A stretch of 64,000 nt of DNA from Candidatus Stammera capleta (GTDB taxonomy: Bacteria; Pseudomonadota; Gammaproteobacteria; Enterobacterales; Enterobacteriaceae): contig CP043985.1 in NCBI GenBank assembly GCA_015134415.1, positions 155,983 to 219,982 on the forward strand, in the 5' to 3' direction. Positions 2,447 through 64,000 of this stretch are shown piece by piece. Positions within the stretch are counted from its first letter, which is position 1; the number at the start of each line of letters is the position of its first letter. A model generated the notes under the pieces. That model saw nothing but the letters and a program-made list of their open reading frames with translations. It was not told where the DNA came from and did not search any database. Both the position numbers and the translations under genes were made by a program.

Positions 2447-6472
<4,026 letters not shown>

Positions 6473-6508
6473 ATATATTTATTATAAATTTTTTAGGAAT
6501 TTTTACTT

Positions 6509-10720
<4,212 letters not shown>

Positions 10721-13241: not shown

Positions 13242-13925
13242 CTAAATTAATCCTAAATTTATTAATATATTTTTTGCTGCTATTTGTTCTGCATTTTTTT
13301 TATTATAACTTATCCCTTTGCTGGTTTTGTTTAAATTATTAATTCTACAGTATATAGTAAATATTTGTTTATGATCTTTTCCTTTTATTTTACCTAAATA
13401 ATATTTAGGTAATGGTAATTTTATTTTTTGTAGATATTCTTGTAATAAAGTCTTATAATCTTTATAATTATATTTTTTATTTAATATTTGATTTTTAAAG
13501 AAAAGACATTTTATTATTTTTTCTATTATTTTAATATTTTTACTATCTATAAATATGGCTCCTATTATTGCTTCTAAAGTATTTGCTAAAATAGATTTTT
13601 TATTATTTTTTTTATTATTTTTTATTTCCCCATTTCCTAATAGTATATATTTATATAATTTAATTTTATTTGCAATTTTAAATAAATTTTTTTTATTTAC
13701 TAATTTAGATCTTATTCTTGTCATTAATCCTTCTTGAAAATTATAACATTTTTTATATATTCTATTTGTAATAATAAAATTTAATATTGAATCTCCTAAA
13801 AATTCTAATCTTTCATTATGGTTATTATTGTAACTTCTATGTGTTAAAGATAAAAATAATATTTTTTTATTATTAAATTTATATTTAATTCTTTTTTCTA
13901 AATAATTTATATTATTATTAATCAT
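13242..13925 (-). CDS. rnc: Ribonuclease III
   Basis: The ...NERLEFLGDSILNFIIT... RNase III signature plus a C-terminal dsRBD-like ...AEQIAAKNIL.... It abuts era with no spacer. Confidence 0.95.
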   Translation of the reverse strand: MINNNINYLEKRIKYKFNNKKILFLSLTHRSYNNNHNERLEFLGDSILNFIITNRIYKKCYNFQEGLMTRIRSKLVNKKNLFKIANKIKLYKYILLGNGEIKNNKKNNKKSILANTLEAIIGAIFIDSKNIKIIEKIIKCLFFKNQILNKKYNYKDYKTLLQEYLQKIKLPLPKYYLGKIKGKDHKQIFTIYCRINNLNKTSKGISYNKKNAEQIAAKNILINLGLI

Positions 13926-13932
13926 AAATTTT

Positions 13933-14808
13933 TTAAATAATTTTACCTATTCTATTAAATCTTATATTTATTGGTAAATAATTTTTTTTTTTTTTAATAC
14001 TCATTCATATAAGTTCAGCTTTTCCTATAATTAAATTTTTATGTACAAACCCTCAGTATCTACTATCTTTACTATTATCTCTATAATCTCCCATAACAAA
14101 ATATTTGTTTTTAGGTACAATTCATATTTTATTTTTTTTTTTATATTTATTTTTATATGGAATTAATAATATTTTATATTTTTTATTTTTAATATATTCT
14201 GTTTTTTTTATTAAAAATATTATTTTTGAAAATATTTTTTTATTTAAATTAATAAAATTTATATTTTTTATTTTTAAAAAATTTTCATATATATTGTTAT
14301 TATTATCTATATATATTTCTTCTACTGAATTATTTAATTTAGTATTTTTATATTTTATTATATTTTTTTTATTATATTTTTTTTTATTTTTATTATATTT
14401 ATATATACTAATTTTTTTATTTTTTTTATTATATATAATTTTATCATTTGGTAAAGCAATTATACGTTTTATATAATATATTTTTTTGTTTTTTGGATAT
14501 TGAAATACAATTATATCTCCATATTTTGGAGTATTTATATTTAGAATAGTTTTATTAGTAAATGGGTTTTTTATATTATATTTAATTTTATTTACTAATA
14601 TCATATCTCCAATTAATAAATTTGGTAACATTGAAGCTGATGGAATTTTAAAAGGTTCATAAATAAAAGATCTAAATATAAATATAAATATTAATATAAA
14701 AAGATTATCAATTATATTATTAAAATGTTTTTTTTTATATAATTTATTATATATTAATATTGTAATATTAATTAATATTAATATAAATAATATTTTGTTA
14801 TATATCAT
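13933..14808 (-). CDS. lepB: Signal peptidase I
   Basis: ...PSASMLPNLLIGDMILVNK... (catalytic Ser box). After read-through of TGA at 14122-14124 it continues ...VMGDYRDNSKDSRYWGFV.... lepA-lepB-rnc-era synteny is kept. Confidence 0.93.
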
Positions 14809-24720: not shown

Positions 24721-24916
24721 TTTATTTATTTTTATTTTTTGTAAATAATTAATTATTTAAATTAAAAATTAATATTTTTAATTAATTTATAATAATTTTT
24801 ATTGTTTTTTATTTAATTTAAAAAATTTTAATTTATTATTTTTAATATTTATAAATATTATTAATATATTTTTTGTTAATTTTATTAAAAAAAAACATAT
24901 TTTTATTAATAATATT

Positions 24917-24938
24917 CTATCAAAACTTGATAGTTTTT
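24917..24938 (+). terminator. Terminator-like hairpin (CTATCAA-AAC-TTGATAG followed by TTTTT)
   Basis: A perfect 7-bp inverted repeat with a 3-nt loop and a T-run. It is the only structured element I can see in the 836-bp spacer. No plus-strand gene ends nearby. Confidence 0.2.
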
Positions 24939-25556
24939 CTCATTTTTTAAATATATTTTAATAATGTTAATTTTATTTTTATATTAAATTTTTTCTATTT
25001 TTTAACTAATTTTGTATTATATATATTTTCTATAATTATAATTAATATATTTTTTTATTTTAATTTTTTATAGAATTATATAATTTATAAATATTAAAAT
25101 TTATATAATTACATAAATATATTTTATATGAATATAAAGTTAAATTTATATATTTTTTTATTACTTATGTAATAATGAACTATTTTCTATTTTATATATT
25201 AATTTTACTATATATTTTTAATGTAGAATAATATTTTATACTATATTTAAATTATTTATATTATTATTTATTAATATAATTATATAAAATAAATTTATTT
25301 TTTAATTTTTTTAATTATGTTATATATAAATATATTTATTCTTAGAAAATATTTTTATTTATTAATATATCTATTTTTTTTATAATTTTTTATTTTGAAT
25401 AATTTTAAAATTTTTTATTTATATTAAAATATTATTAGAATATATATAATATATATGTATATACTATTTTTTTGTTTTTTATAATAATAATATTTATTTA
25501 ATAAGATGTAATTAAAATTATTAAATAATTTATTAATTTTTATTTTGGTATTTATA

Positions 25557-26468: not shown

Positions 26469-26993
26469 TAAAAATATTTTATTTATAAAAAAATTTAATA
26501 TTAAACTGAAAATTATATCTTGTAATTTATGTAAATATAATAATAATCTACTTATAATAATAATTTTTAATATATTATTTATAATATTTAAATATCATTT
26601 TTTTTTATTTTTAAATAATATAATTCAAAAACTACAAAATATTGTATGACCAGATGGAAATGAACTATCTTTTCTATTTTTTCAATTATTTCTTAATCAA
26701 AATGGTATTTTTATTTTTTTTTTTTTAATTTTATTTAATATATTTATATATGGTCTTTTTATAAATATTGTTTTTTTTATTATATTTTTTATTAATAAAG
26801 ATATTAAAGGTATTATTATTAATGATAATATTTTTTTTTTTTTAATTTTATTTTTTTTATTTTTAATATATATATATATAAATATTATATGTGTAATTAT
26901 TACTAACGGAAATTCTATTATTTTATTAATTATATATAATATATATATTATATTAAAATAAGTTTTATTTAAGAATATTAATATTTTTTTCAT
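26400..26993 (-). CDS. pgpB: PAP2-family phosphatase, PgpB-like (phosphatidylglycerophosphatase B / undecaprenyl-PP phosphatase)
   Basis: All three PAP2 motifs are present: KxxxxxxRP (KTIFIKRPY), SFPSGHT and SRLLLYLHKLQD (SRx5Hx3D). Local similarity to E. coli PgpB is clear (FPSGHTMFAASW..., SRLLLGMHWPRD). Several internal TGA codons occur. The 3' end is uncertain: the first TAA in frame is at 26400, which overlaps convergent rbn by 69 nt. Confidence 0.8.
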
Positions 26994-27163
26994 TTTTTTA
27001 TTTTTTATATATATTTTTTATAAAATATTAATGATTTATTTCATATTAAAATTTATAATAATTATTTTATATATATTTTTATAAAATATTTATTTTTTAA
27101 TATTTGAATTATTATATAATAAATCTTAAAAAAATTTAAATATTTTATTTAAATAGGAATATT

Positions 27164-37574: not shown

Positions 37575-38135
37575 GTGTGTATAAAAAGTCATTTAATTTT
37601 TTGTTTATTTTTTATAATATTTTTTGTAAAAATTTTAAATCTATTTAATATTTATTTAAATATATTATATATTATACCTATTTCTTTTATATCATGTATA
37701 TTACCTGATATAGATCATCCTAAATCTTTTTTAGGAAATAATTTAAAATTTATATCTATTAAAATATTTAATTTTTTTGGACATAGAACTATTACTCATA
37801 GTTTGTTTGGTTTAATTTTATTTGTTTTATTTATTATATATATAAATTTTTTTTTATTTAATTTTGATTTTGATATAATTTTTATTATATTTTTAAGTTA
37901 TTTTAGTCATATTTTATGTGATATGTTTACATATAAAGGTATAATTTTTTTATGACCATTAAAATTTAAATTTAGAATTCCTATTTTTTATTTTTTTTTA
38001 AATAAAAAAAATGAATATTATTTTTGTGTTTTTTTATTATTATTATCTATAATAATATATAAATTTATTTATATTAAAAATATATTAATAATTTATTTAA
38101 ATATATGTTTACATTATATCAATCTAATAATTTAG
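37575..38135 (+). CDS. ydjM: YdjM-family inner-membrane metal-dependent hydrolase (DUF457)
   Basis: ...ILPDIDHPKSFLGNNLKFIS...FGHRTITHSLFG...SYFSHILCDMFTYKGIIFL-W-PLKFKFRIPI... closely parallels E. coli YdjM (LLPDIDHPKSFLG..., FGHRGFTHSL, SHILADMLT...LLWP..W.FRLPI). It has a GTG start after AGGA. The 3' end runs 31 nt into recC. Confidence 0.85.
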
Positions 38136-41100
38136 ATATTTTAAAAAGAAATATATTATATATTATAAAAAATAATAAAATAAATAATATTTTTACATCA
38201 AATATATTTATATTAGTTTCTAATAAAAATATATCTTTAAATTTAAAAATTTTTTTATCAAAAGAAATAGGTATATGTGCAAATTTTAAATTTTTATTAG
38301 TTGGAAAATTTATATGAAAATTTTGTAAAAATATTATACCTGATTTATCTAAAAAATATTATTTTAATAAATATAATTTAATTTGGATAATATTTAATAT
38401 ATTACCTAAAGTTATTAATTTAAAAGAATTTTATTTTATTAAAAAATATTTAAAAAATGATTATAATTATGAAAAATTATTTAATTTATCTATAAAAATT
38501 TCTAATATATATGATGAATATTTAATGTATAGAATAGATTGATTATATGAATGAAAAAATTATAGATATATAAAAAATATAAATAATTCTATACATCAAA
38601 AATGACAATCTATATTGTGAAGAAAAATAATAAAATATTTTATTTATAATTTTTCTTATAAATGAAATAAATCAGATCTTTATTTAAAGATTTTAAAAAT
38701 ATTAAGTAATAAAAGATTTATTTTTCCTAAAAATATTATTAATTATATTTGTATATATAATATATCATCTATTCCTCCTATTTATTTAAATATTTTATAT
38801 TCAATATCTAAATATAAAAATATTTATTATTTTTTATTTAATCCATCATATAAATTTTGATATGAAAAAATTTATTTTGATGTTAAAAAAAATATATTAT
38901 TAAAAAAAAATAAAAAAAATAATTTTATTTATAAATTTTATAATAATAAAAATAATTATAATTCATTATTACTGAATTATGGAAAAAGTTTATCTGAAGT
39001 TTTATTATTATTATTACAATTTAATATTAGAGAAGTAAATTATTTTATAAAATTTAATAATATTAATGATGATAATTTAAATATTATTAAAAATAATATA
39101 TTAAATTTTAAAGATATTATTATAGATAAAAAATATAAAAATAATTCTATAATAATTAGTAAATCTTATGGTTATTTAGAAGAAATTAAAAAATTAAAAG
39201 ATTTTTTATTAAATTTAATTGTTAATAAACATTTTAATGTAAATGATATAATAGTTAATGTTACTGATGTTAATATATATTATCCTTATATTAATTCTAT
39301 ATTTTCGGATTTTGAGTGTAAAAAATATTTACCATATAAAATTTTAGAACATAATAATGTTTATGAAAATGAATTATTAAATATATTTTTAAATTTATTA
39401 AATATATCTAATTTAGAATTTAATTTTAATGAATTATTATCTTTTTTTAAAAAAAAGATAATATTTAAAAAATTTAATATAAATTATGAAGAATTAAAAC
39501 TAATTATATATATTATTAAAAATATAGGTTTAAATATAGATTTAAAAAAAGATATTTTTTATAAAAAATTTAATTATTTAACTTGAATAAATGGTTTAAG
39601 AAGAATATTGTTAGGTTTTTGTATAAATAATGAATATTGTATTTGAAATAATATTATTCCTTATACGTTTTCATCAAATAATTTTTATTATAATTTAATT
39701 GAAAAAATATGTGATTTTATTTATAAAATATTATATTGGAAAGATATTTTAAATAAAAAATATTTATTTCATGATTGAATTTTTATTTGTATAAAATTTA
39801 TAAATGTTTTTTTTTATAAAAAATATATTAATAAAAGTATATTTTTAAATAAAAAAAATTTTTTAGATGTTTTAGAAAGTTATAATATATGTAAATTCAA
39901 CAAAAATATAAATATTAATATTTTTAAAAAAATGTTAGTTAATTTTTTTAAATATAAAAATAAAAAAAAAATTTATTCTATAAATCATATAAATTTTTGC
40001 TCATTTATTTATTCTGAATCTTTATTTTTTAAAATTGTTTGTTTAATAGGTATGAATGAAAATATATATCCTAAAAATAAAATTTATTGTGATTTTAATT
40101 TAATTAATTCTAATTTAAGATTAGGTGATCGAAATAAAATAAATTATGATAAATATTTATTTTTACAAAAAATTTTATTTTGTAATAAAATATATATTAG
40201 TTATATTAATTTTTGTTTTTTAAAAAATAATTTTTGTTTTCCTTCTATACTTTTAGTATTTTTTAAAAATTATATAGATACATTTATAAATAAAATTAAT
40301 TTTTATAAACCAAATAAAAAAAAAATTATATATATTAAAAAAAATATAATTAAAAATAAATATAATTTAAATATTTTTAATTATATAAATAAAAGTAATT
40401 ATTATAATATATATAAAAATATATATATTATTAATTTAGTAGAATTACATAATTTTTGATTAAATCCTATTAAATATTTTTTATATTTTTTTTATAAAAT
40501 AAATTATTTTATTTCTGATATTTATATTAATAAAAATGAATTTTTTAATTTAAATATAAAAAAAATTTATTTAATTAGATATAAAATTATAGATATTTTG
40601 GTAAGATATGGATATAGTAAAAATATTTTTTTATATTTACAAAATTTAAATTTTTTACCCTTAAATTTTTTTGGTAACATATTATGAGAAAAAGAAAAAA
40701 AAAATATTTTATTTTTAGTTAATAATATAAAAAAATATTATTTTAATGTAAATAAAGTTAATATTAATATTAAATTTAATAATTTTTGTATTAAAGGTAA
40801 TATATATAGATATGATAAATTTGGTTTATTTCAATGATTACCTAAAAATTTAAATTTAATAGATGCTTTATTATTTTGAATAGATCATTTAATATATTGT
40901 TATATTGGAGGTAATAATTGTAGTTATTTATATGGATATAATGGTATATGATATTTTAAACCTTTAAATAAAGAAAAATCTATAAATTATATTAATAAAT
41001 ATGTAAATGCATATTTAAATGTTTATAATTATCCATTATTTTTTTTACCTAAATCTTCTAATATATGAATTTTTTCTTCTTATAATATTAATAGTAAAAA

Positions 41101-41317
41101 ATTATTGAATAAATTTAATTTAATTAAAGCTAAAAAAAAATTATTTGATAATTTATATGGAAATTTTTTTATAGAGGGAGAAATTAATAATATATATGTA
41201 TCTTATATAATTAAAAAATATTATAATTTTTTAAATATTAAATTTATAATTTCTGAAATAGAAAAGTGATTATTACCTGTTTTTAATAATTTATTAATTA
41301 ATTATAAAAAATATTAA
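38105..41317 (+). CDS. recC: Exodeoxyribonuclease V gamma subunit RecC (1070 aa)
   Basis: MFTLYQSNNLDILK...GICANFKFLLVGKFI-W-... and ...NIYDEYLMYRIDWLYEW... parallel the E. coli RecC N-terminus (MLRVYHSNRLDVLE..., DQYLVYRPDWLAQW). The 39932 ORF is in frame. There are many TGA Trp codons. recC-recB-recD order is kept. Confidence 0.93.
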
Positions 41318-41324
41318 TAATTTT

Positions 41325-44300
41325 ATGATAAATAATTTAAATTTTTTAGATATATATTTAGGAAAATCTAATTTAATAGAAGCTTCTGCTGGTACTGGAA
41401 AAACAAATATTTTATCATTATTGTATTTACGTTTTTTGTTAAATATAAATATAGAAAATAATTTTTCAAATTTATCTATAAATAATATATTAGTTGTTAC
41501 TTTTACTGATTTAGCTTGTTTAGAAATAAAAAAAAGGATATTAAATAATATAAGAAAATTACGTATTTGTTTTATAAAAAATATTTTTTTTAATGATTAT
41601 ATAAGAAATATATTTTTATATATTAAAAATATTCCTAATATATTAGATATATTAATATATTATGAAAATAATATTGATATATCTTCTATATATACTATAC
41701 ACAGTTTTTGTAAAAAAATATTATTTTCTTATTTTATAAATTCAAATATAAATAATTCTTTAAGAATTTTAGATTATGAATATGATTTTTTTTATAAAAT
41801 AATAATTTTATTTTGACGTAAATATTTTTATAATTTATCTTATAGTGTAAGTAAAATAATTTTTTTTTATTGATCTACTCCAGATAAATTATATAATTTT
41901 ATATTTCCTATTTTAAATTTTATAGATTTTAAATTTACTAATATAACTAAATATAGTTCTATAGAAGATTGTTATAATAAAATTATTATTTTTATTAATA
42001 ATTTTAAAGAATTATGAATCAAAAATTATAAAGAAATTTATAATTTTTTTATTAATTTAAATAATTTTTATAATATATATAATAAAAGAAAAATTAATAT
42101 TTGATTTTATTATATAAATTTATGATGTAATAATAAAACTGTTAATTTTTATATTCCTTATTATTTAAAAAAATTTAAATATAAATATATTATAAAATAT
42201 AAATTTTATTTTAATTTAAATATTAAAAATATTTTTTTATATGTAGAAAAATTATATATTAAAGTTAATGATTTATATAATTTTGTAATATTTAAGTGTT
42301 TAAAATATATTAAAATAAATATATTTAAATATAAAAAAAAGAATAATTTTATTAGTTTTGATGATTTAATAAGTAAAGTTAATTATATATTAAGTAATAA
42401 TAATTTATTTACTAATATTATTAGAAATAATTTTCCTATATCTTTAATTGATGAATTTCAAGATACAGATTTTTTACAATATGATATTTTTAATAAAATA
42501 TATATAAAAAATAATTTATTAAATAATACTAAAATAATATTTATAGGTGATCCTAAACAATCAATATATACTTTTAGAGGGGCTAATATATTTAATTATA
42601 TTAAATCTAAAAATAATATAGATTTTTTATATATTTTAAATATAAATTGAAGATCTTCTTATTTTTTAATAAAAAGTATAAATTTTTTATTTAATAAAAT
42701 TAATAATCCATTTATTTTTAAAGATACTAATTATTTGTTATCTTTACCTTCTTATAAAAATAAAAAATTAATTATTAGAAATAACAAAAAAATATTTAAT
42801 AGTTTTAATTTTTTTATATTAAATAATTTGAATAGTTTAAATTATAAAAATAAAATAGCTAAGTTTTGTTCAATTAAGATATATAAAATTTTAAATTCTA
42901 ATAATGTTTATTTATATAAAAATAATAATACTAAAAGAAAAATAATTCCTTCTGATATTTGTATATTAGTTCATAAAAACTATGAAATAAAAATTTTTTT
43001 TGATATTTTAAAAAAATTTTTTTTACCTATTAATTGTATATTAAATAAAAGTAATGTGTTTAATTCTTTAGAAGCTAAAGAAATTTTTTTTTTATTAAAA
43101 GCTATAATTTTTCCTAATTGTAAATCAAATATACGTAATGCTTTATCTATTGATTTATTTAATTATGATTTAAATAGTATTAATAAATTTATTAATGATA
43201 ATATTTTATATATTAAAATTATTGATGATTTTTATTTTTATAATAATTTATGAAGTAAGTATGGTATATATTATTTATTAAATTTTCTTTTAAAAAATAA
43301 AATAAGAGATAATTTTTTTAATTATAAAAATAAACAATATAATGTAAATATATTACATATAGGTGAAATTTTGCAAAAAAAATTTTATTTAATTAATGAT
43401 AAATTATTATTATTAAATTGATTAAATGAAAAAATTAATATTATATCTAATAATAATAAAGAATATTATTTACGTTCATTTTCTTATGAAAATGATGGAA
43501 TTAAAATATCTACTATTCATAAATCTAAAGGATTACAATATAATATAGTTTGAATACCTTTTTTATTTTCTTTAAATAAATATAATAATTTTAATATTTA
43601 TCATAATCGTAAAAATTGTAGAACTAATATAGATTTTTTAAATTTTGATAAATATAATAATTTAATGAATGAAGAATTAATTTCAGAAGAAATGCGTTTA
43701 TTATATGTATCTATTACTAGATCTATATATATATGTAATATTATTTTATATGAAATATTTAATAGTAATATTAAATTTTATTTTACTTCCATAGGTAGAA
43801 TTATAGGTAATAATAAAAAATTTAATTTTTCTGAAATTAACAAAAAAATTTTTGTTTTTAAAAAATGTAAATATATTAATTTTAAATTTATAAATATTAT
43901 TGATTATATTAAAAAAAATAATTTTTATATTATTAAGTATTTTTTATATAAAAAAAATAAAGAATATAGAAATATTTCAAATATTAATAAAATAATTAAT
44001 TATTCAAAAATTATTTTATTAAATAAAAAAAAAAAAATATTACATAATAATTTTATTAATAATTTAAATAATAATATTTTTTTTTTAAATTTATCTAAAG
44101 GAAAAAAAATAGGTTTATTTTTTCATAAAGTTTTAGAAAAAATTAATTTTAATATTAATATAGATAATAATTTTTTATTAAAATATATATATAATTATAA
44201 TATTAAAAAAAAATACTTTTTTAATATTAAAAAAATATTATTTAATTTATTAAATGTAATTTTATATCCATTAAATATAAATTTAAAAAGTATTAAATCT

Positions 44301-44798
44301 AATAGTATATTAAAAGAATTTGATTTTTTTTTAAGTATAAATAAAATAAATTTTTTAAAATATAATAATATTATTAAAAAATATGATAAAATTTCATATT
44401 TATGTGATGATTTAAATATAAAAAATTCTATTAAAGGGTATTTAAATGGTGTTATAGATTTAATTTTTTTTTATAAAAATAAATATTATATTATTGATTA
44501 TAAATCTAATTGATTTGGTAATAATATTTTATATTATAATAAAAATAATATTATAAATAATATAATTTTAAGAAGATATGATATTCAATATCAAATATAT
44601 TCTATTGCTTTACATAATTATTTAAAATTAAATATTAATAATTATAATTATTCTACTAATTTTGGGGGTATATATTATATTTTTTTAAGAGGTTTATTTA
44701 TTGAAAATAATTATAGATCTTATAATGGTATTTTATATATTAAACCTAATGAAAAATTAATTTTAAAATTAAATAATTTATTTAAAAATGGAAATTAA
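41325..44798 (+). CDS. recB: Exodeoxyribonuclease V beta subunit RecB (1157 aa), helicase and nuclease motifs intact
   Basis: Walker A LIEASAGTGKTNIL, motif II IDEFQDTDFLQY, ...GDPKQSIYTFRGA..., and the nuclease motif GYLNGVIDLIFFYKNKYYIIDYKSN-W- (E. coli GFIDLVF...YYLLDYKSNW). Track ORFs 41325, 42735 and 43665 share one frame. Confidence 0.95.
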
Positions 44799-44800
44799 TT

Positions 44801-46672
44801 ATGTATTTTAATGAAATAGAAAATTTTTTATGAACATGTTATAAAAGAAAAGAAGCTAATTTATTAGATATATATTTTTCTAAATTTTATTTTAAAAAAA
44901 ATAATTTTGATTATTCTATAATTATGTTATTTAGTTTTTTAATTAGTTTGTCTAGTAGATTAGGACATATATGTCTTCCAATTTTTAAGATTTTAAGTAA
45001 AGATATATTTACTAAATATATATATAATTTTTTAATATATTTTTTTAATAAATATATAAGTATATATGATAGTATAAATATTTTATTTAAATATAATTTT
45101 ATAAGTTTTTTTTATAAGAAGAATATAACCCCTTTTATATTGTATAAAAATTATATTTATTTATATAAATTTTGAATTTATGAAAATTATATAGTTAAAT
45201 TTTTTAAAAAAAATTTAGTTAAAAATGATATTATAAAAAATAGTAAAATTTTTTATATATTTAAATATTTTAAAAAATTTAATTTTAATATATATGAAAA
45301 AATTTGTATTTTAAATGTTTTTTTTAATAAAATATCTTTTATATCTGGTTCCCCGGGTACTGGAAAAACTACTATTATTATTAAGTTAATTTATATTTTA
45401 TATAAATTATATAAAATAAAAAATAAAAATTTTATTAAAATAGTTTCTTTTACTGGAAAATCTTGTTCTAATTTAACTAATATTTTAAAGAAAAATTATA
45501 AAATATTTAATATTAAAAAAAATATTAATTTACCTAATAAAGTAATAACAATACATAAATTATTAAATTATAATTTAGATTTTAATAAAATGAATATTAA
45601 AAAAAATAATAATTTACAGTTTAATATTTTAATAATAGATGAATTTTCTATGATTGATGTTTTTACATTATATAATATTTTTTTATTATTAAATAAAAAT
45701 TTTTTAAAAATAATATTTTTAGGTGATAGTAATCAAATAGGTCCTATAGAATCTTGTTCGTTATTGAATGAAATATGTAATTATAATTTTTCTTTTTTTA
45801 ATAAAAGAAAAAATATATTAAAATTTTTATTTAAATATAAATTTAATTTTAATAAGTTTTTTATAAATATTAATAAATTAAATAATAATATATCATTTTT
45901 ATTAAAGAATTATCGTTTTAAAAAAAATAAATATTTTAATATATTTTCTAATTTTATAAATTGTGGTAATTATAATGAAATTGATAAATTTATTATTAAT
46001 AATAATTTTAATTGTAATATAAATTTTTATGATTCAGATAAATTTAATTATAATTTTTTAGTTAATTTTTGTTTAAAAAAATATAAAAATTATATTAATT
46101 ATTTAAATAATAATAATATGAAATATAATAAATTATTATATTATTTTAATAAATTTCAAATTATTTCTATAATTAAAAATTCAAAGTTAGGTATTAATTA
46201 TTTAAATAAATATATAAATAATTTATTTTTAAATAAATATATAAAAAAATATATAATTAAAAAAAATAAAATTTATTATATTGGTCAACCTATTATTATT
46301 ACTAAAAATAATGATGATTTAGATATATTTAATGGAGACGTAGGTTTTATTATTTATATAAATAATATAATAAAAATTTTTTTTTCTAATTTTAATAATG
46401 ATTGTAAAATTATTTATTTTAATGATTTTATTAATTGACAATTAACTTGAGTAATTACTGTACATAAATCTCAAGGATCTGAATTTGATCATATTTTATT
46501 AATTATACCTAATTATTTTTCTTCTATATTAAATAGAGAAATATTATATACTGCTATTACTAGAGCTAAAAAAAAAATTACTATTTATTCTAATAAAAAT
46601 ATATTTTTAAATAGTATAAAAAGAGAAAATAAAAAGTATAATAATATTATTAATAAGTTAAATTCTTTTTAA
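44801..46672 (+). CDS. recD: Exodeoxyribonuclease V alpha subunit RecD (623 aa)
   Basis: Walker A ISGSPGTGKTT, Walker B/motif II LIIDEFSMID, ...GDSNQIGPIESCS..., and C-terminal ...TVHKSQGSEFDHILLI...ILYTAITRAKKK.... Track ORFs 44924 and 45590 are in frame with ATG 44801. Confidence 0.94.
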
Positions 46673-53073: not shown

Positions 53074-53176
53074 TATAATTTTTACTTTATTAGAAATTTA
53101 ATAATATACATATATATGTTAATGTACTAATAGTAAATATTATCAATAATTTTATTAATCTGGATATTATATTCAG

Positions 53177-54589
53177 GTTAATAAAATTTATTGTTAATTT
53201 TTTAGTTATATAATTTAATATTAAAATCATTGTTATGGAAGATAATATTATTTTGAAAAATATTTTTCTTCATTTATATTTAAAATTTATTATTTTTTTT
53301 TTTTTTAATTGTAAATATAATATAAATATATTTATATAATAAGATAAACTTATAGATAAAGATAATCCTGAATGTTTAAATATTTTAATAGTAAAAATAT
53401 TTAGTATTTGTGTAATTATTAATGTAAATATTGCTATATTATTTAGTATATTATTATTATTCATAGAATAAAAACATGGTGTTAGTATTCTAATTATTAT
53501 TAATGGTAATAATCCTATTGAATAAGTTATTAATATTTTTGATGTCATAATTACATCAATAAAATTAAACTTTCCATATTTAAATAAAGTTATTATTAAT
53601 ATTTTAGATAAATATATTAATATAATTGATATAGGTATACTAAATAATAATGTTATTTTTAAGTATTTATTTATTATTTTATTACATTTTTTTTTATTTT
53701 TATTATGAAAATTTTTAGATAATTTAGGTAATAATATTGTACTTGTTGTATTACCTAATATACTTACTGGTAATTCTAATAATTTATCTGCATAATATAT
53801 TCATGATATTGAACCTGATTTAAAATATGAACATATATTATTATTAATAATTTGAGATGTTTGATATATAGATATTTCAAATATAATTGGAATAATATTT
53901 TTTATTATTTTATATATATTTTTATTATGTATATTTAAAATATTAAATTTTATATTTAAATATATATTTTTTATGCTTATTTTTTGAATTAATAATTGTA
54001 TTATCCCTCCTATTATTATAGATCATGCTAAAGAAAAAATTGTAGATTTAAAATATTTATTTATGAATAGTATATATAATATAATTATTATATTTAATAT
54101 AATTGGTGAAAAATTTGGTATTAAAAACATATCTCATATATTTAATATAGATGATATATATGATGTTAATGATATTAATATTATATATGGAAATGTAATT
54201 TTTAATAATTTATCTATTGTTTTTAATTTTAAATTATTTTTAAAAAATCCAGGTGATATTATATATATAATATTTTTAGAGAAATTTATACCTAATATAG
54301 TTATTATTATTAATATAAAAAATAATACAAAATATATTGATGAAATTAATTCGATTATTTTTTTTTTAGTTTTTTTTTCTTTATATTTACTTAATATTGG
54401 TATAAATACATATGAAAATGCTCCTTCTGCGAATATTCTTCTTAACATATTTGATATTTTAAATACAGTATAGAAAGCATCTGTTTTAAAATTTATACCA
54501 AATTTATTTGCTATTATTATATCTCTTATAAAACCTATTATTTTAGATATAAATATTAAACAACTTATTTTTATAATATTTAATAACAT
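53177..54589 (-). CDS. murJ: Lipid II flippase MurJ (MviN), about 470 aa
   Basis: The N-terminus ...[56 protein letters not shown] parallels E. coli MurJ ([56 protein letters not shown]). It is multi-pass and hydrophobic throughout. The tail after TGA at 53270-53272 is uncertain. Confidence 0.9.
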
Positions 54590-59463: not shown

Positions 59464-59865
59464 TTTATATTAAATTATTATATTTTTTTAAAAAATTTTA
59501 TTTATATTATTTAAAGTGATATTAATTATACTTAATAAAAATTTTTATTAAAATATTTAAAAAATTAATAAAATATTATTATATATTAATAATAAATTTA
59601 AATATATTATTATAATATTTTTAAAAATATTTTTATTTTTTATAAGTATTAATTTTAATAAAAATTATTTTTTATTTTTATTATTTTATTTAGTTATTTT
59701 TTATGTATTTTTAAAATTATTTTTATTTATCAAATAAAATATTTTTTTAATATTATTTCTTAAATTTATAATTTATTATTATAATTTTGTAATATATATA
59801 TTATAATATATATGTATATTATATATTTATTTATAATATTTTTAATAATTTTTATAATTTATAAT

Positions 59866-62669: not shown

Positions 62670-63029
62670 TATTTTTTGTTATTTTTTATATATTAATTAA
62701 TTAATAAATATAATATTAATATATTATTAAATTTAATATAATAATAATATTATTATATTTATTTTTTATTATTATTTTTATATATTGTTATAAATTATAT
62801 TTATAATAATTAATGATATTTATTATATTTTTATAAATTATTTACTTATAAATTAATTTTATGTTTTAAAATTATTTTATTTTTTTAGTATAATATATTA
62901 TATGTAAAATTAAAAATTAATATTTTTATTTTTTAATAATGATAAATTTAAAATATATTAGTTATATTTTTTATTTATATTAAATATTTTATATTTTTTT
63001 TAACTTTTTATTTTTTATATTTTATATTT

Positions 63030-63383
63030 TTATATATAATATTTTTTTCAAATTTTTTTGAAGTAATTAAATATATTTTTTTTTTTTAATAATAATATAT
63101 TTTTTTTTAAAATTATTAAATAATTTAATTTTTTTATTTTATATTGGTTTATTCTAAATGTTTCTAATATTATTCTTTTGTATTTATTTCTTAATGTAGA
63201 TAATTTTATATATTTTTTTTTTATTAAAGTAGCTATTTTAGGACTTTTATTTTTATTATGTAAATATTTTATTATTATATATTTATATATATTTATTTTA
63301 ATATTATTTTTTTTTTTATAAATTTTATTGAAATATTTTATTTTTATTTTTTTTTCTTTTGTAAGAGATAATTTTTCTTCCAT
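63030..63383 (-). CDS. rnpA: RNase P protein component
   Basis: ...[39 protein letters not shown]... parallels the RnpA RNR motif region (...AHERNRIKRLTRESFRL...DFVVVAKK). It is downstream of and overlapping rpmH. A TGA at 63048-63050 is followed by 5 codons, then TAA. Confidence 0.85.
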
Positions 63384-63459
63384 TTTTAGTTTTCATTCTT
63401 TTTCTAAAACCATGTTTACGTTTTTTTTTTATATTTGATGGTTGAAATGTTCTTTTCAT
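63325..63459 (-). CDS. rpmH: 50S ribosomal protein L34
   Basis: [32 protein letters not shown]... parallels E. coli L34 ([31 protein letters not shown]). It is 44 aa and below the ORF-track cutoff. It overlaps the rnpA start by 59 nt in another frame. Confidence 0.93.
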
Positions 63460-63850
63460 ATTTATATTTTAAATTATTTTTAGTTTAAATTATTTTTAAT
63501 AATATTTTATTTTTATTATAAATAAATATTTAATTAAAATAAAATATTATTAAAATATGAGTTTAACATGTGAATGATATTATTACAAGTTGTTTAATAA
63601 TAAATTAATTATTTTTTATTTATATTAATTTAATATCATAATTTATGTAATTAATTAATTTATTTATTATATTATATTAATAAATATATTTTTAAATATT
63701 TTAAAATATATAAAAATTTATTTAAATATAAAATATATTTTAGTTAAATTTTAATTTGTTAAAATTAAATATTATTATATTTATAATATAATTGATAATA
63801 TTATAATATAAAATTTAATAATTTATTAGAAATAATATTAAAGTGTAAAT

Positions 63851-63999
63851 ATGCATTTTATAATAGAAAAAGAAAAAATTGTTATTTTATTAAGTAAGTT
63901 TAATACATATATAGGTAATTCTTTAAAAAATCCAATTTTATCAAATATTTTATTAATTTTAAAAGGTAATAAATTGATTTTTATAGTAACTAATTTAGA
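63851..63999 (+). CDS. dnaN: DNA polymerase III beta sliding clamp, 5' end (runs off window), with an apparent -1 frame break at 63958-63964
   Basis: MHFIIEKEKIVILLSKFNTYIGNSLKNPILSNILLIL matches the DnaN N-terminus (MKFTVEREHLL...LPILGNLLLQV). The expected continuation KGNKLIFIVTNLD (E. coli ..DGTLSLTGTDLE) is in the -1 frame from 63961. The zero frame hits TAG at 63983-63985. Confidence 0.85.
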   Translation, partial: MHFIIEKEKIVILLSKFNTYIGNSLKNPILSNILLILKGNKLIFIVTNL

Positions 64000-64000
64000 T

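What the first reader, a model, noticed from the sequence alone, without database searches (positions are those of the whole stretch)
63460..63850. No dnaA at the rpmH | dnaN junction
In most bacteria dnaA lies between the divergent rpmH and dnaN genes. Here rpmH (minus strand, start 63459) and dnaN (plus strand, start 63851) are separated by only 391 bp of almost pure A/T. This spacer has no ORF and no convincing DnaA box; the best candidate, TGTGAATGA at 63569-63577, has a mismatch. Loss of dnaA is known from a few obligate symbionts (Wigglesworthia, Blochmannia, Carsonella and others). How replication starts in such genomes is still unresolved. This spacer is a natural candidate for a DnaA-independent origin or for the eroded remnant of dnaA.
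Basis: partly seen in the sequence, partly recalled or inferred. Interest (0 to 1): 0.7.

Follow-up and report, generated by a model that had tools for sequence, protein, structure and literature searches.

The report
Decayed dnaA gene in beetle symbiont
The 391-bp A/T spacer between rpmH and dnaN is the decayed stub of the replication-initiator gene dnaA in a small-genome strain of the leaf-beetle gut symbiont Stammera; sister strains still carry the gene at this spot, and the strand asymmetry shows no replication origin here.

Summary
rpmH (63325-63459, -) and dnaN (63851 on, +) are separated by 391 bp of 95.4% A+T, with no ORF and no consensus DnaA box.

The window is not from a sap-feeder symbiont. 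It is Candidatus Stammera capleta (Enterobacterales, genetic code 4), from a 245,213-bp genome. Five other Stammera genomes (258-302 kb) carry an intact 443-469 aa dnaA exactly between rpmH and dnaN. The window, a ~93%-identical sister (CP144813.1) and CP144769.1 do not.

The spacer still holds dnaA wreckage:
- a 24-nt exact match (63552-63575) to codons K-Y-E-F-N-M-W-I of a relative's dnaA;
- a 3' stub (63799-63850) reading KFNNLLEIILKCKY.

Skew split by gene strand keeps one polarity from about 74 kb left to 10 kb right of the junction, so this is not an origin. The depositors' skew-set origin lies about 100 kb away.

All 21 Stammera DnaA proteins examined lack sensor-II Arg334, and most lack the arginine finger.

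This is a new case of a known pattern (Blochmannia, Baumannia). How replication starts remains open.

The parts
63325..63459 (-). rpmH (ribosomal protein L34, 44 aa)
   Evidence: ORF; Pfam Ribosomal_L34, E 3.6e-17. Orthologous rpmH found in all relatives.
63030..63413 (-). rnpA (RNase P protein). The start is uncertain (63383 or 63413) and it overlaps the 3' end of rpmH.
   Evidence: Pfam Ribonuclease_P, E 3.1e-12. This was the query that identified the organism as Stammera.
63460..63508 (.). Original rpmH-dnaA intergenic stretch, about 49 bp here and 63-82 bp in dnaA-bearing strains. Presumed rpmH promoter and leader.
   Evidence: Alignment anchored at the rpmH start. 83% identical to the sister L011. 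The promoter function is inferred, not shown.
63509..63597 (+). 5' relic of dnaA (domain I, codons ~1-32). The start codon is lost, there are 3-nt and 4-nt deletions, and a stop sits at 63595-63597.
   Evidence: Collinear alignment with the 5' ends of dnaA in L007 and L003. Window 63553-63597 reads K Y E F N M W M I L L Q V V *; L007 reads K Y E F N M W I L P L Q V L I. The sister L011 has the same relic with the same indels.
63552..63575 (+). Core of the 5' relic: a 24-nt exact match to nt 51-74 of L007 dnaA.
   Evidence: Maximal exact match of 42.8 bits; a 13-nt exact match to L003. The spacer has no match of >=30 bits against about 190 kb of other Stammera sequence on both strands. The Trp corresponds to W25, which is invariant in the DnaA alignment.
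63598..63798 (.). Middle of the spacer: nearly pure A/T with no assignable homology. Possibly further decayed dnaA sequence.
   Evidence: Alignment to dnaA beyond ~63600 is A/T-only and not distinguishable from chance. Protein-level Smith-Waterman scores fall within the shuffle range. 94% identical to the sister, against 92.5% at third codon positions.
63799..63850 (+). 3' relic of dnaA. The open frame reads YYNIKFNNLLEIILKCKY and runs on into dnaN to a stop at 63895-63897, the same 47-nt overlap as in L007. Presumed to carry the dnaN promoter and ribosome-binding region.
   Evidence: Frame translation compared with DnaA C-termini such as EFNNLIKLVLISKY in L002. Anchored ungapped identity to dnaA+ strains is 31-37 of 60, against 24 +/- 4 at random positions (empirical p 0.001-0.04). 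tblastn gives 45% identity over 22 aa. The regulatory role is inferred.
63851..64000 (+). dnaN (beta sliding clamp), first 50 codons; cut by the window end.
   Evidence: Pfam DNA_pol3_beta, E 1.1e-6. The full-length orthologue in L001 has all three clamp domains.
62670..63029 (.). Neighbouring deletion scar where yidC sits in larger Stammera genomes.
   Evidence: yidC (461-488 aa) lies between rnpA and mnmE in L002, L003, L007 and L009. It is absent in the window, L001, L006 and L011. No sequence relic was found.

Best explanation
**What it is.** The spacer is what remains of dnaA after gene death in one clade of Candidatus Stammera capleta (genomes of about 240-246 kb). About 1 kb of the ~1.35-kb gene has been deleted. 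The rest has drifted to almost pure A/T. What survives is a frameshifted 5' relic (~63509-63597) and a 3' stub (63799-63850) that abuts dnaN.

**What it does now (inferred).** The DNA probably serves only as the divergent promoter and leader region for rpmH-rnpA and dnaN-gyrB.

**Replication.**
- Shown: it is not a replication origin. Forks cross it from left to right in window orientation.
- Shown: the depositors' skew-defined origin lies about 100 kb to the left and the inferred terminus about 20 kb to the right.
- Inferred: this lineage starts replication without DnaA, as other dnaA-less insect symbionts do.
- Inferred: DnaA was already being released from constraint across the genus before it was lost.
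- Not determinable from this sequence: the initiation mechanism itself. Candidates are recombination- or R-loop-primed PriA-type loading, or transcription-driven opening at the old oriC.
For: **Organism and genome**
- The RnpA query hits only Stammera genomes.
- Exact window proteins sit on an NCBI contig of 245,213 bp.
- Code 4 is documented for Stammera.

**Homologous position**
- L002, L003, L006, L007 and L009 carry intact dnaA (DnaA_N, Bac_DnaA, Bac_DnaA_C) between rpmH and dnaN, 63-82 bp from rpmH and overlapping dnaN.
- The window, L011 (CP144813.1) and L001 (CP144769.1) instead have spacers of 391, ~390 and 467 bp.

**Relic**
- A 24-nt exact match of 42.8 bits at the collinear place, with no comparable match elsewhere.
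- Alignments and translations.
- The same relic with the same indels in the sister L011.

**No other dnaA**
- None in the window or in L001.
- Two database searches with Stammera DnaA return about 22 Stammera-type DnaA proteins. All on long contigs come from genomes of 258-326 kb. None comes from the 239-246 kb genomes, whose other proteins are in the same collection.

**Not an origin**
- The + strand carries G>C and T>A irrespective of gene orientation in every quarter of the window. The same holds on both sides of the junction in L001, L002, L003 and L011, and 10 kb left of the window in L013.
- In CP144xxx records set to a GC-skew origin, the junction is at 58-59%.
- Spacer identity to the sister is 93-94%, against 92.5% at third codon positions.

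**Relaxation of DnaA**
- All 21 Stammera DnaA proteins lack R334, and 16 of 21 lack R285.
- The closest dnaA+ relatives (L007/P0024, P0139, L003) also lack H434 or T435-type DNA contacts.
- Buchnera and Serratia symbiotica keep all of these residues.
Against: - The rest of the window's own genome (about 181 kb) was not read. Absence of dnaA there rests on annotated proteins and on synteny.
- The window's own right flank is only 150 bp. The absence of a skew switch is shown in relatives, not in this genome.
- Skew records long-term history and would lag behind a recently moved origin.
- The 3' relic is only modestly significant (p 0.001-0.04). A protein-level shuffle test did not detect either relic.
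- The promoter assignment rests on position only. Promoter-like motifs are at chance level in this composition.
- That the deposited records begin at the skew origin is taken from the preprint's methods, not checked here.
Confidence: 0.85

Rival explanations
1. The spacer is a DnaA-independent replication origin that arose, or was retained, where dnaA used to be.
For: The spacer is extremely A/T-rich and so easy to melt. It sits at the dnaA-dnaN locus, which hosts oriC in many non-enterobacterial bacteria (general knowledge). Skew cannot exclude a very recent origin shift.
Against: - Skew polarity does not switch at the junction in four relatives, including the ~93%-identical sister. Polarity is uniform from about 74 kb left to 10 kb right of the junction.
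- The junction is at 58-59% of records rotated to the skew origin.
- There are no DnaA boxes or direct repeats beyond chance.
- The spacer is no more conserved than third codon positions and is poorly conserved against L001.
- Other intergenic scars in the window are just as A/T-rich, at 2.6-4.9% GC.
- In Enterobacterales the ancestral oriC is at mnmG-mioC, not at dnaA.
Confidence: 0.06
2. A functional dnaA, or a highly diverged copy, sits elsewhere in this genome, so the strain is not DnaA-free.
For: Only 64 of 245 kb were read directly. Stammera DnaA is so diverged (24-32% identity to E. coli) that a further diverged copy could escape searches.
Against: - There is a decayed relic at the ancestral locus.
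- No hit in the window or in the relatives' flanks.
- No DnaA-type protein from any 239-246 kb Stammera contig in two collection-wide searches. Other proteins of this genome are present in that collection.
- Stammera chromosomes are reported as highly syntenic, with differences driven by loss.
Confidence: 0.04
3. The missing gene is an assembly or curation artefact, i.e. a collapsed or mis-joined region.
For: The genome is extremely A/T-rich and derived from a metagenome. Half of the Stammera assemblies needed scaffolding and gap filling.
Against: The same gene-less junction occurs in three independently assembled genomes (window, CP144813.1, CP144769.1). Two of them share the relic indels. 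The spacer shows graded decay rather than a clean join.
Confidence: 0.01
4. The surviving relic pieces are kept because they have acquired a function of their own, such as the dnaN promoter or ribosome-binding site in the 3' stub, or a regulatory element in the 5' G/C island.
For: - The 3' stub is the best conserved sub-region against the sister (49 of 51 aligned bases).
- It corresponds to the part of dnaA that overlaps dnaN in dnaA+ strains.
- In E. coli, dnaN promoters lie inside dnaA (general knowledge).
- A TATAAT at 63802-63807 is shared with L001.
Against: The conservation differences rest on small counts. In L001 every G/C of the 5' island has mutated away. Promoter-like motifs are at chance level.
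Confidence: 0.3

Closest known systems
Differential dnaA loss in Candidatus Blochmannia (Williams and Wernegreen 2015, PMC4389277)
   Same: A single genus of enterobacterial insect symbionts has dnaA intact in one lineage (B. turneri), present as a detectable pseudogene in another (B. obliquus) and absent in others. Consensus DnaA boxes are uninformative there too.
   Different: Blochmannia is intracellular with genomes of ~700-790 kb. Stammera is extracellular with genomes of 216-340 kb and uses code 4. In Blochmannia the skew origin is next to mnmG; the origin neighbourhood in Stammera was not read here.
Baumannia cicadellinicola, B-GWSS versus B-BGSS (Bennett et al. 2014, PMC4196230)
   Same: Sister symbiont strains differ in retention of dnaA and other initiation genes.
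   Different: No obvious GC skew was reported in Baumannia. The Stammera sequences read here show clear strand asymmetry once it is split by gene orientation.
Wigglesworthia glossinidia (PMC3280448)
   Same: An enterobacterial symbiont without dnaA. Its origin was assigned without diagnostic DnaA boxes.
   Different: Both sequenced Wigglesworthia lack dnaA, so there is no intact within-genus comparator. No relic was described in the passages read.
E. coli K-12 rpmH | dnaA-dnaN-recF-gyrB locus, and oriC between mnmG and mioC
   Same: The same ancestral gene order: gyrB-(recF)-dnaN-dnaA | rpmH-rnpA-(yidD-yidC)-mnmE.
   Different: The window lacks dnaA, recF, yidD and yidC. E. coli oriC is about 42 kb from dnaA, between mnmG and mioC. 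No mnmG, rsmG, mioC or atpB homologue occurs in the window or the fetched loci.

Membership tests
dnaA-less obligate insect symbiont genome | No intact dnaA at the ancestral rpmH-dnaN position | tested here: met
   391-bp spacer with no ORF over 23 codons. Intact dnaA occupies this position in five relatives.
dnaA-less obligate insect symbiont genome | No dnaA anywhere else in the genome | tested here: inconclusive
   None in the 64-kb window. No DnaA-type protein from the 245,213-bp contig or its 239-246 kb sisters in two collection searches. The remaining ~181 kb of DNA was not read.
dnaA-less obligate insect symbiont genome | Host-restricted bacterium with a strongly reduced genome | tested here: met
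   Stammera capleta identity. 245-kb contig, 13.5% GC, code 4. Symbiont biology from the preprint.
Pseudogene relic of dnaA | Lies at the collinear position of the intact orthologue | tested here: met
   The relic core begins 93 nt from the rpmH start in the window. The matching dnaA segment in L007 begins 114 nt from the rpmH start.
Pseudogene relic of dnaA | Sequence similarity to intact orthologues beyond chance | tested here: met
   24-nt exact match of 42.8 bits, with none of >=30 bits in ~190 kb of control sequence. The 3' stub gives 31-37 of 60 against 24 +/- 4. A protein-level shuffle test was not significant.
Pseudogene relic of dnaA | Reading frame destroyed | tested here: met
   Start codon lost, 3-nt and 4-nt deletions, stop at 63595-63597, and about 1 kb missing.
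Bacterial chromosomal origin (oriC-type) | Cluster of DnaA boxes | tested here: not met
   No exact box in the spacer. One 1-mismatch site against 1.24 expected, and that site is relic coding sequence.
Bacterial chromosomal origin (oriC-type) | Switch of strand compositional asymmetry at the site | tested here: not met
   The sign of replication-linked GC and AT skew is the same on both sides in L001, L002, L003 and L011, through the window, and in L013. The window's own right flank is too short to test.
Bacterial chromosomal origin (oriC-type) | Purifying selection on the non-coding element | tested here: not met
   93-94% identity to the sister against 92.5% at third codon positions. Other spacers range from 82 to 96%. 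The spacer is poorly alignable to L001.
DnaA-independent origin (R-loop or D-loop primed, PriA-dependent) | Replication demonstrably starts at the site; PriA, RecA and RNase H status of the genome | not testable with these tools
   Needs read-depth profiles and the full gene list. Only recBCD (38105-46672) was confirmed in the window.

The most novel reading that the evidence does not exclude
Stammera would be a genus of extracellular, experimentally transferable gut symbionts in which the canonical initiator is dispensable.
- DnaA would already be crippled in every strain. Sensor-II Arg334 is lost in all strains examined and the arginine finger in most.
- DnaA has then been deleted in the smallest-genome clade.
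- The syntenic dnaA+ and dnaA- strains would form a natural experiment for locating and dissecting a DnaA-independent origin.
- If true, loss of dnaA cannot be explained by intracellular host control of symbiont replication.

That no other extracellular symbiont lacks dnaA is my recollection and was not checked.
Probability: 0.3. Interest if true: 0.6.

Novelty: new member of a known kind. Interest (0 to 1): 0.4.

Why it matters
Loss of dnaA is known from several insect symbionts, and how they initiate replication is unsolved. Stammera adds three things.
- **A graded series within one syntenic genus.** It runs from intact but degenerate DnaA, through a recognisable relic (window, CP144813.1), to a nearly erased relic (CP144769.1). 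Such a series lets comparative and read-depth analyses ask whether the origin stays put when DnaA disappears.
- **An extracellular case.** Stammera lives outside host cells. This bears on the older idea, cited in PMC4389277, that dnaA loss hands replication control to the host cytosol.
- **A caution for annotation.** A near-consensus DnaA box in such a spacer can be leftover coding sequence.

In the literature I could search, no paper mentions dnaA together with Stammera. The fact is nevertheless implicit in the public annotations.

Tried and rejected
- **Zinderia.** My first guess from 13.5% GC and code 4 was Candidatus Zinderia. The genome-contig scan hit only Stammera, so I rejected it.
- **Uncorrected tblastn.** Without composition correction every gene of the window 'matches' DnaA. 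Only composition-corrected results were used.
- **Protein-level relic test.** Smith-Waterman of spacer translations against five DnaA proteins, with 200 shuffles, was not significant. It was too noisy in this composition, and DNA-level anchored alignment and exact-match information content found the relic instead.
- **Motif and RNA scans.** DnaA boxes, promoter and terminator scan, repeats and Rfam on the spacer gave nothing beyond chance.
- **yidC scar.** I looked for a yidC relic in 62670-63029 and found none.
- **Relative divergence.** Divergence from E. coli of DnaA compared with its neighbours is not informative, because all are 24-49% identical.
- **Extending the window's own genome.** rpmH and SufC of this strain are not in the gene-position index. 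I therefore used the sister CP144813.1.
- **Walking to the origin.** Reaching the depositors' origin (~28 kb beyond L013) would have used all remaining large searches, so I did not do it.
- **oriC neighbours.** mnmG, rsmG, mioC and atpB are absent from all sequence held.
- **Papers not held.** Salem et al. 2017 and 2020 are not in the library.

Full report
**The observation**

The window has 13.5% G+C and reads sensibly only with TGA as tryptophan.
- rpmH occupies 63325-63459 on the minus strand (Pfam L34, E 3.6e-17).
- rnpA follows rpmH. dnaN begins at 63851 on the plus strand.
- The 391 bp between them contain 15 G and 3 C.
- The spacer has no start-initiated ORF longer than 23 codons under code 4.
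- It has no Rfam match, no direct repeats and promoter-like motifs at chance frequency.
- The consensus DnaA box TTWTNCACA is absent from the spacer. It occurs 8 times in the window, against 4.5 +/- 2.3 in shuffles.

The description is accurate.

**Which organism this is**

I first suspected Candidatus Zinderia. A scan of one genome per species with the RnpA sequence returned only three Candidatus Stammera capleta chromosomes. Stammera is the extracellular pectinolytic symbiont of cassidine leaf beetles, and it is documented to use code 4.

Exact copies of six window proteins are on an NCBI contig of 245,213 bp. Near-identical proteins are on contigs of 246,187, 245,958 and 244,218 bp.

**What occupies this position in relatives**

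Eight Stammera junctions were read.
- **With dnaA.** Five genomes carry an intact dnaA of 443-469 codons with DnaA_N, Bac_DnaA and Bac_DnaA_C domains. They are CP144856.1 (302 kb), CP144785.1 (283 kb), CP062308.1 (283 kb), CP144780.1 (268 kb) and CP043973.1 (258 kb). In each, dnaA starts 63-82 bp from rpmH and overlaps the start of dnaN.
- **Without dnaA.** Three have only a spacer: the window (391 bp), CP144813.1 (246 kb, ~390 bp) and CP144769.1 (240 kb, 467 bp).

By protein identity the window is closest to CP144813.1 (codon positions 1 and 2 about 95.5% identical). Next come CP144769.1 (79-89% amino-acid identity) and the dnaA-bearing CP144785.1 and CP144780.1 (63-80%).

**The spacer is dnaA wreckage**

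The evidence comes from aligning the rpmH-proximal DNA of all strains.
- The small G/C island in the window's spacer holds 9 of its 18 G/C bases within 63559-63592. It lines up with the 5' end of dnaA.
- Window 63552-63575 is identical over 24 nt to nt 51-74 of the CP144780.1 gene.
- That match carries 42.8 bits under the window's base composition.
- The spacer has no match of 30 bits or more to about 190 kb of other Stammera sequence on both strands.

In the dnaA frame the window reads K Y E F N M W M I L L Q V V stop, against K Y E F N M W I L P L Q V L I in the relative. The Trp is the invariant W25 of DnaA domain I. Upstream of the match the start codon is gone, and 3-nt and 4-nt deletions break the frame.

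At the other end, 63799-63850 is an open stretch in the old dnaA frame. It reads YYNIKFNNLLEIILKCKY, compared with EFNNLIKLVLISKY and similar C-termini in relatives. It ends at a stop inside dnaN, with the same 47-nt overlap as in CP144780.1. Its anchored identity to dnaA-bearing strains is 31-37 of 60, against 24 +/- 4 for random positions.

The middle 200 bp cannot be assigned. A protein-level shuffle test detected neither relic, so the case rests on the DNA-level evidence.

CP144813.1 carries the same relic with the same indels, so the gene died before these two strains split. In CP144769.1 the homologous stretch has lost every G/C.

**Is dnaA elsewhere in the genome?**

- Composition-corrected tblastn under code 4 finds no DnaA in the 64-kb window or in the 20 kb read from CP144769.1.
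- Two searches of the large protein collection used Stammera DnaA queries, one of them the closest available relative. They return about 22 Stammera-type DnaA proteins.
- All those on long contigs come from genomes of 258-326 kb. None comes from the 239-246 kb genomes, although other proteins of those genomes are in the same collection.
- Stammera chromosomes are described as highly syntenic, with gene loss driving the differences between them.

I could not read the remaining ~181 kb of this genome. Complete absence is very likely but not proven.

**Is the spacer an origin?**

I separated replication-linked from coding-linked skew by comparing genes on the two strands.
- Throughout the window the plus strand has an excess of G over C (+0.06 to +0.14).
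- It also has an excess of T over A. Third-position AT skew is negative for genes in both orientations.
- The plus strand is therefore the leading strand, and forks run left to right.
- The same polarity holds on both sides of the junction in CP144769.1, CP144856.1 and CP144785.1 (10 kb each side).
- It also holds in the sister CP144813.1 (4.3 kb to the right) and in the 10 kb left of the window start in that sister.

No polarity switch therefore occurs from about 74 kb left to 10 kb right of the junction.

Independently, the depositors state that they set position 1 of their records at the GC-skew origin. In four such records the junction lies at 58-59% of the circle, with dnaN on the minus strand. 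This agrees with my polarity. It places the origin roughly 100 kb to the left and the expected terminus some 20 kb to the right.

The spacer diverges from the sister at 93-94% identity. Third codon positions are at 92.5% and other spacers at 82-96%. It is not under visible constraint.

The ancestral enterobacterial oriC is not next to dnaA but between mnmG and mioC. None of those genes is in the sequence I hold.

Skew reflects history and cannot exclude a very recent origin shift. Nothing positive supports one.

**State of DnaA in strains that keep it**

I aligned 21 Stammera DnaA proteins with those of E. coli, Buchnera and Serratia symbiotica.
- **Kept in all 21:** Walker A K178, R399 and R407.
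- **Lost in all 21:** sensor-II R334 and R432.
- **Lost in 16 of 21:** the arginine finger R285.
- **Closest relatives of the dnaA-less clade** (P0024 from CP144780.1, P0139, and CP144785.1): these also have non-conservative changes at H434 or T435/T436, and at D236 or D235.
- **Buchnera and Serratia symbiotica:** both keep every one of these residues.

I read this as relaxation of DnaA's ATP-switch and DNA-recognition functions before the gene was lost. This is an inference from residues, not a functional test.

**Mechanism**

- **Shown:** the gene is dead here, the relic sits at the orthologous place, and forks pass through it.
- **Inferred:** the DNA now serves as a divergent promoter and leader region. 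The 3' stub likely supplies dnaN's expression signals, since dnaN overlaps dnaA in strains that keep it.
- **Open:** how initiation occurs. The window retains intact recC, recB and recD (38105-46672) and ligA. These are compatible with recombination-linked priming but are also retained in dnaA-bearing symbionts. They do not discriminate.

**Comparison and novelty**

The same triad has been described in Blochmannia: intact in one lineage, pseudogene in another, absent in others. There too DnaA boxes were uninformative. Baumannia strains differ in dnaA, and both sequenced Wigglesworthia lack it.

This is therefore a new member of a known kind. Its particular value is a 50-genome syntenic series in an extracellular symbiont. 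I found no paper mentioning dnaA together with Stammera, and the two key Stammera papers are not held.

**Verdict**

The 'eroded dnaA' reading is supported and the 'origin' reading is not. Interest is moderate (0.4).

Noticed in passing
window 62670-63029: A 360-bp spacer (2.8% GC) between mnmE and rnpA marks the loss of yidC, and of yidD. A 461-488 aa yidC sits here in CP144856.1, CP144785.1, CP144780.1 and CP062308.1. It is missing in the window, CP144769.1, CP144813.1 and CP043973.1. No sequence relic was detectable.
   Followed up: partly
window 59464-59811: A 348-bp spacer (2.6% GC) between sufB and ruvX/yqgF. Some relatives carry a 2-hydroxyacid dehydrogenase plus pntA-pntB here (L002, L009), or the dehydrogenase alone (L003, L006). 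This is another deletion scar.
   Followed up: partly
window 38105-46672: recC, recB and recD are intact (Pfam). Together they take up 8.6 kb of a 245-kb genome that has lost dnaA, recF and yidC.
   Followed up: partly
all Stammera loci (L001-L003, L006, L007, L009, L011), dnaN-gyrB junction: recF lies between dnaN and gyrB in E. coli but is absent in every Stammera genome read.
   Followed up: no
L001 (CP144769.1), gyrB, locus coordinates about 5859-8280: gyrB is split into two ORFs (263 + 486 aa) by a frame break near codon 263. This could be a pseudogene, a slippage-tolerated homopolymer or an assembly error.
   Followed up: no
L011 (CP144813.1) 13340-14698, corresponding to window 53090-54589: The sister genome has no called gene where the window has a 499-aa murJ-like ORF. 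murJ may be decaying in the sister.
   Followed up: no
window 24721-25544 and 26469-27163: Two unusually long spacers (824 and 695 bp in a crude ORF-based gene map, 4.9% and 7.3% GC). They may be further gene-loss scars.
   Followed up: no
DnaA proteins P0001-P0024, P0139 and L003 (alignment A2): All 21 Stammera DnaA proteins lack sensor-II Arg334, and only 5 keep the arginine finger Arg285. Buchnera and Serratia symbiotica keep both.
   Followed up: yes
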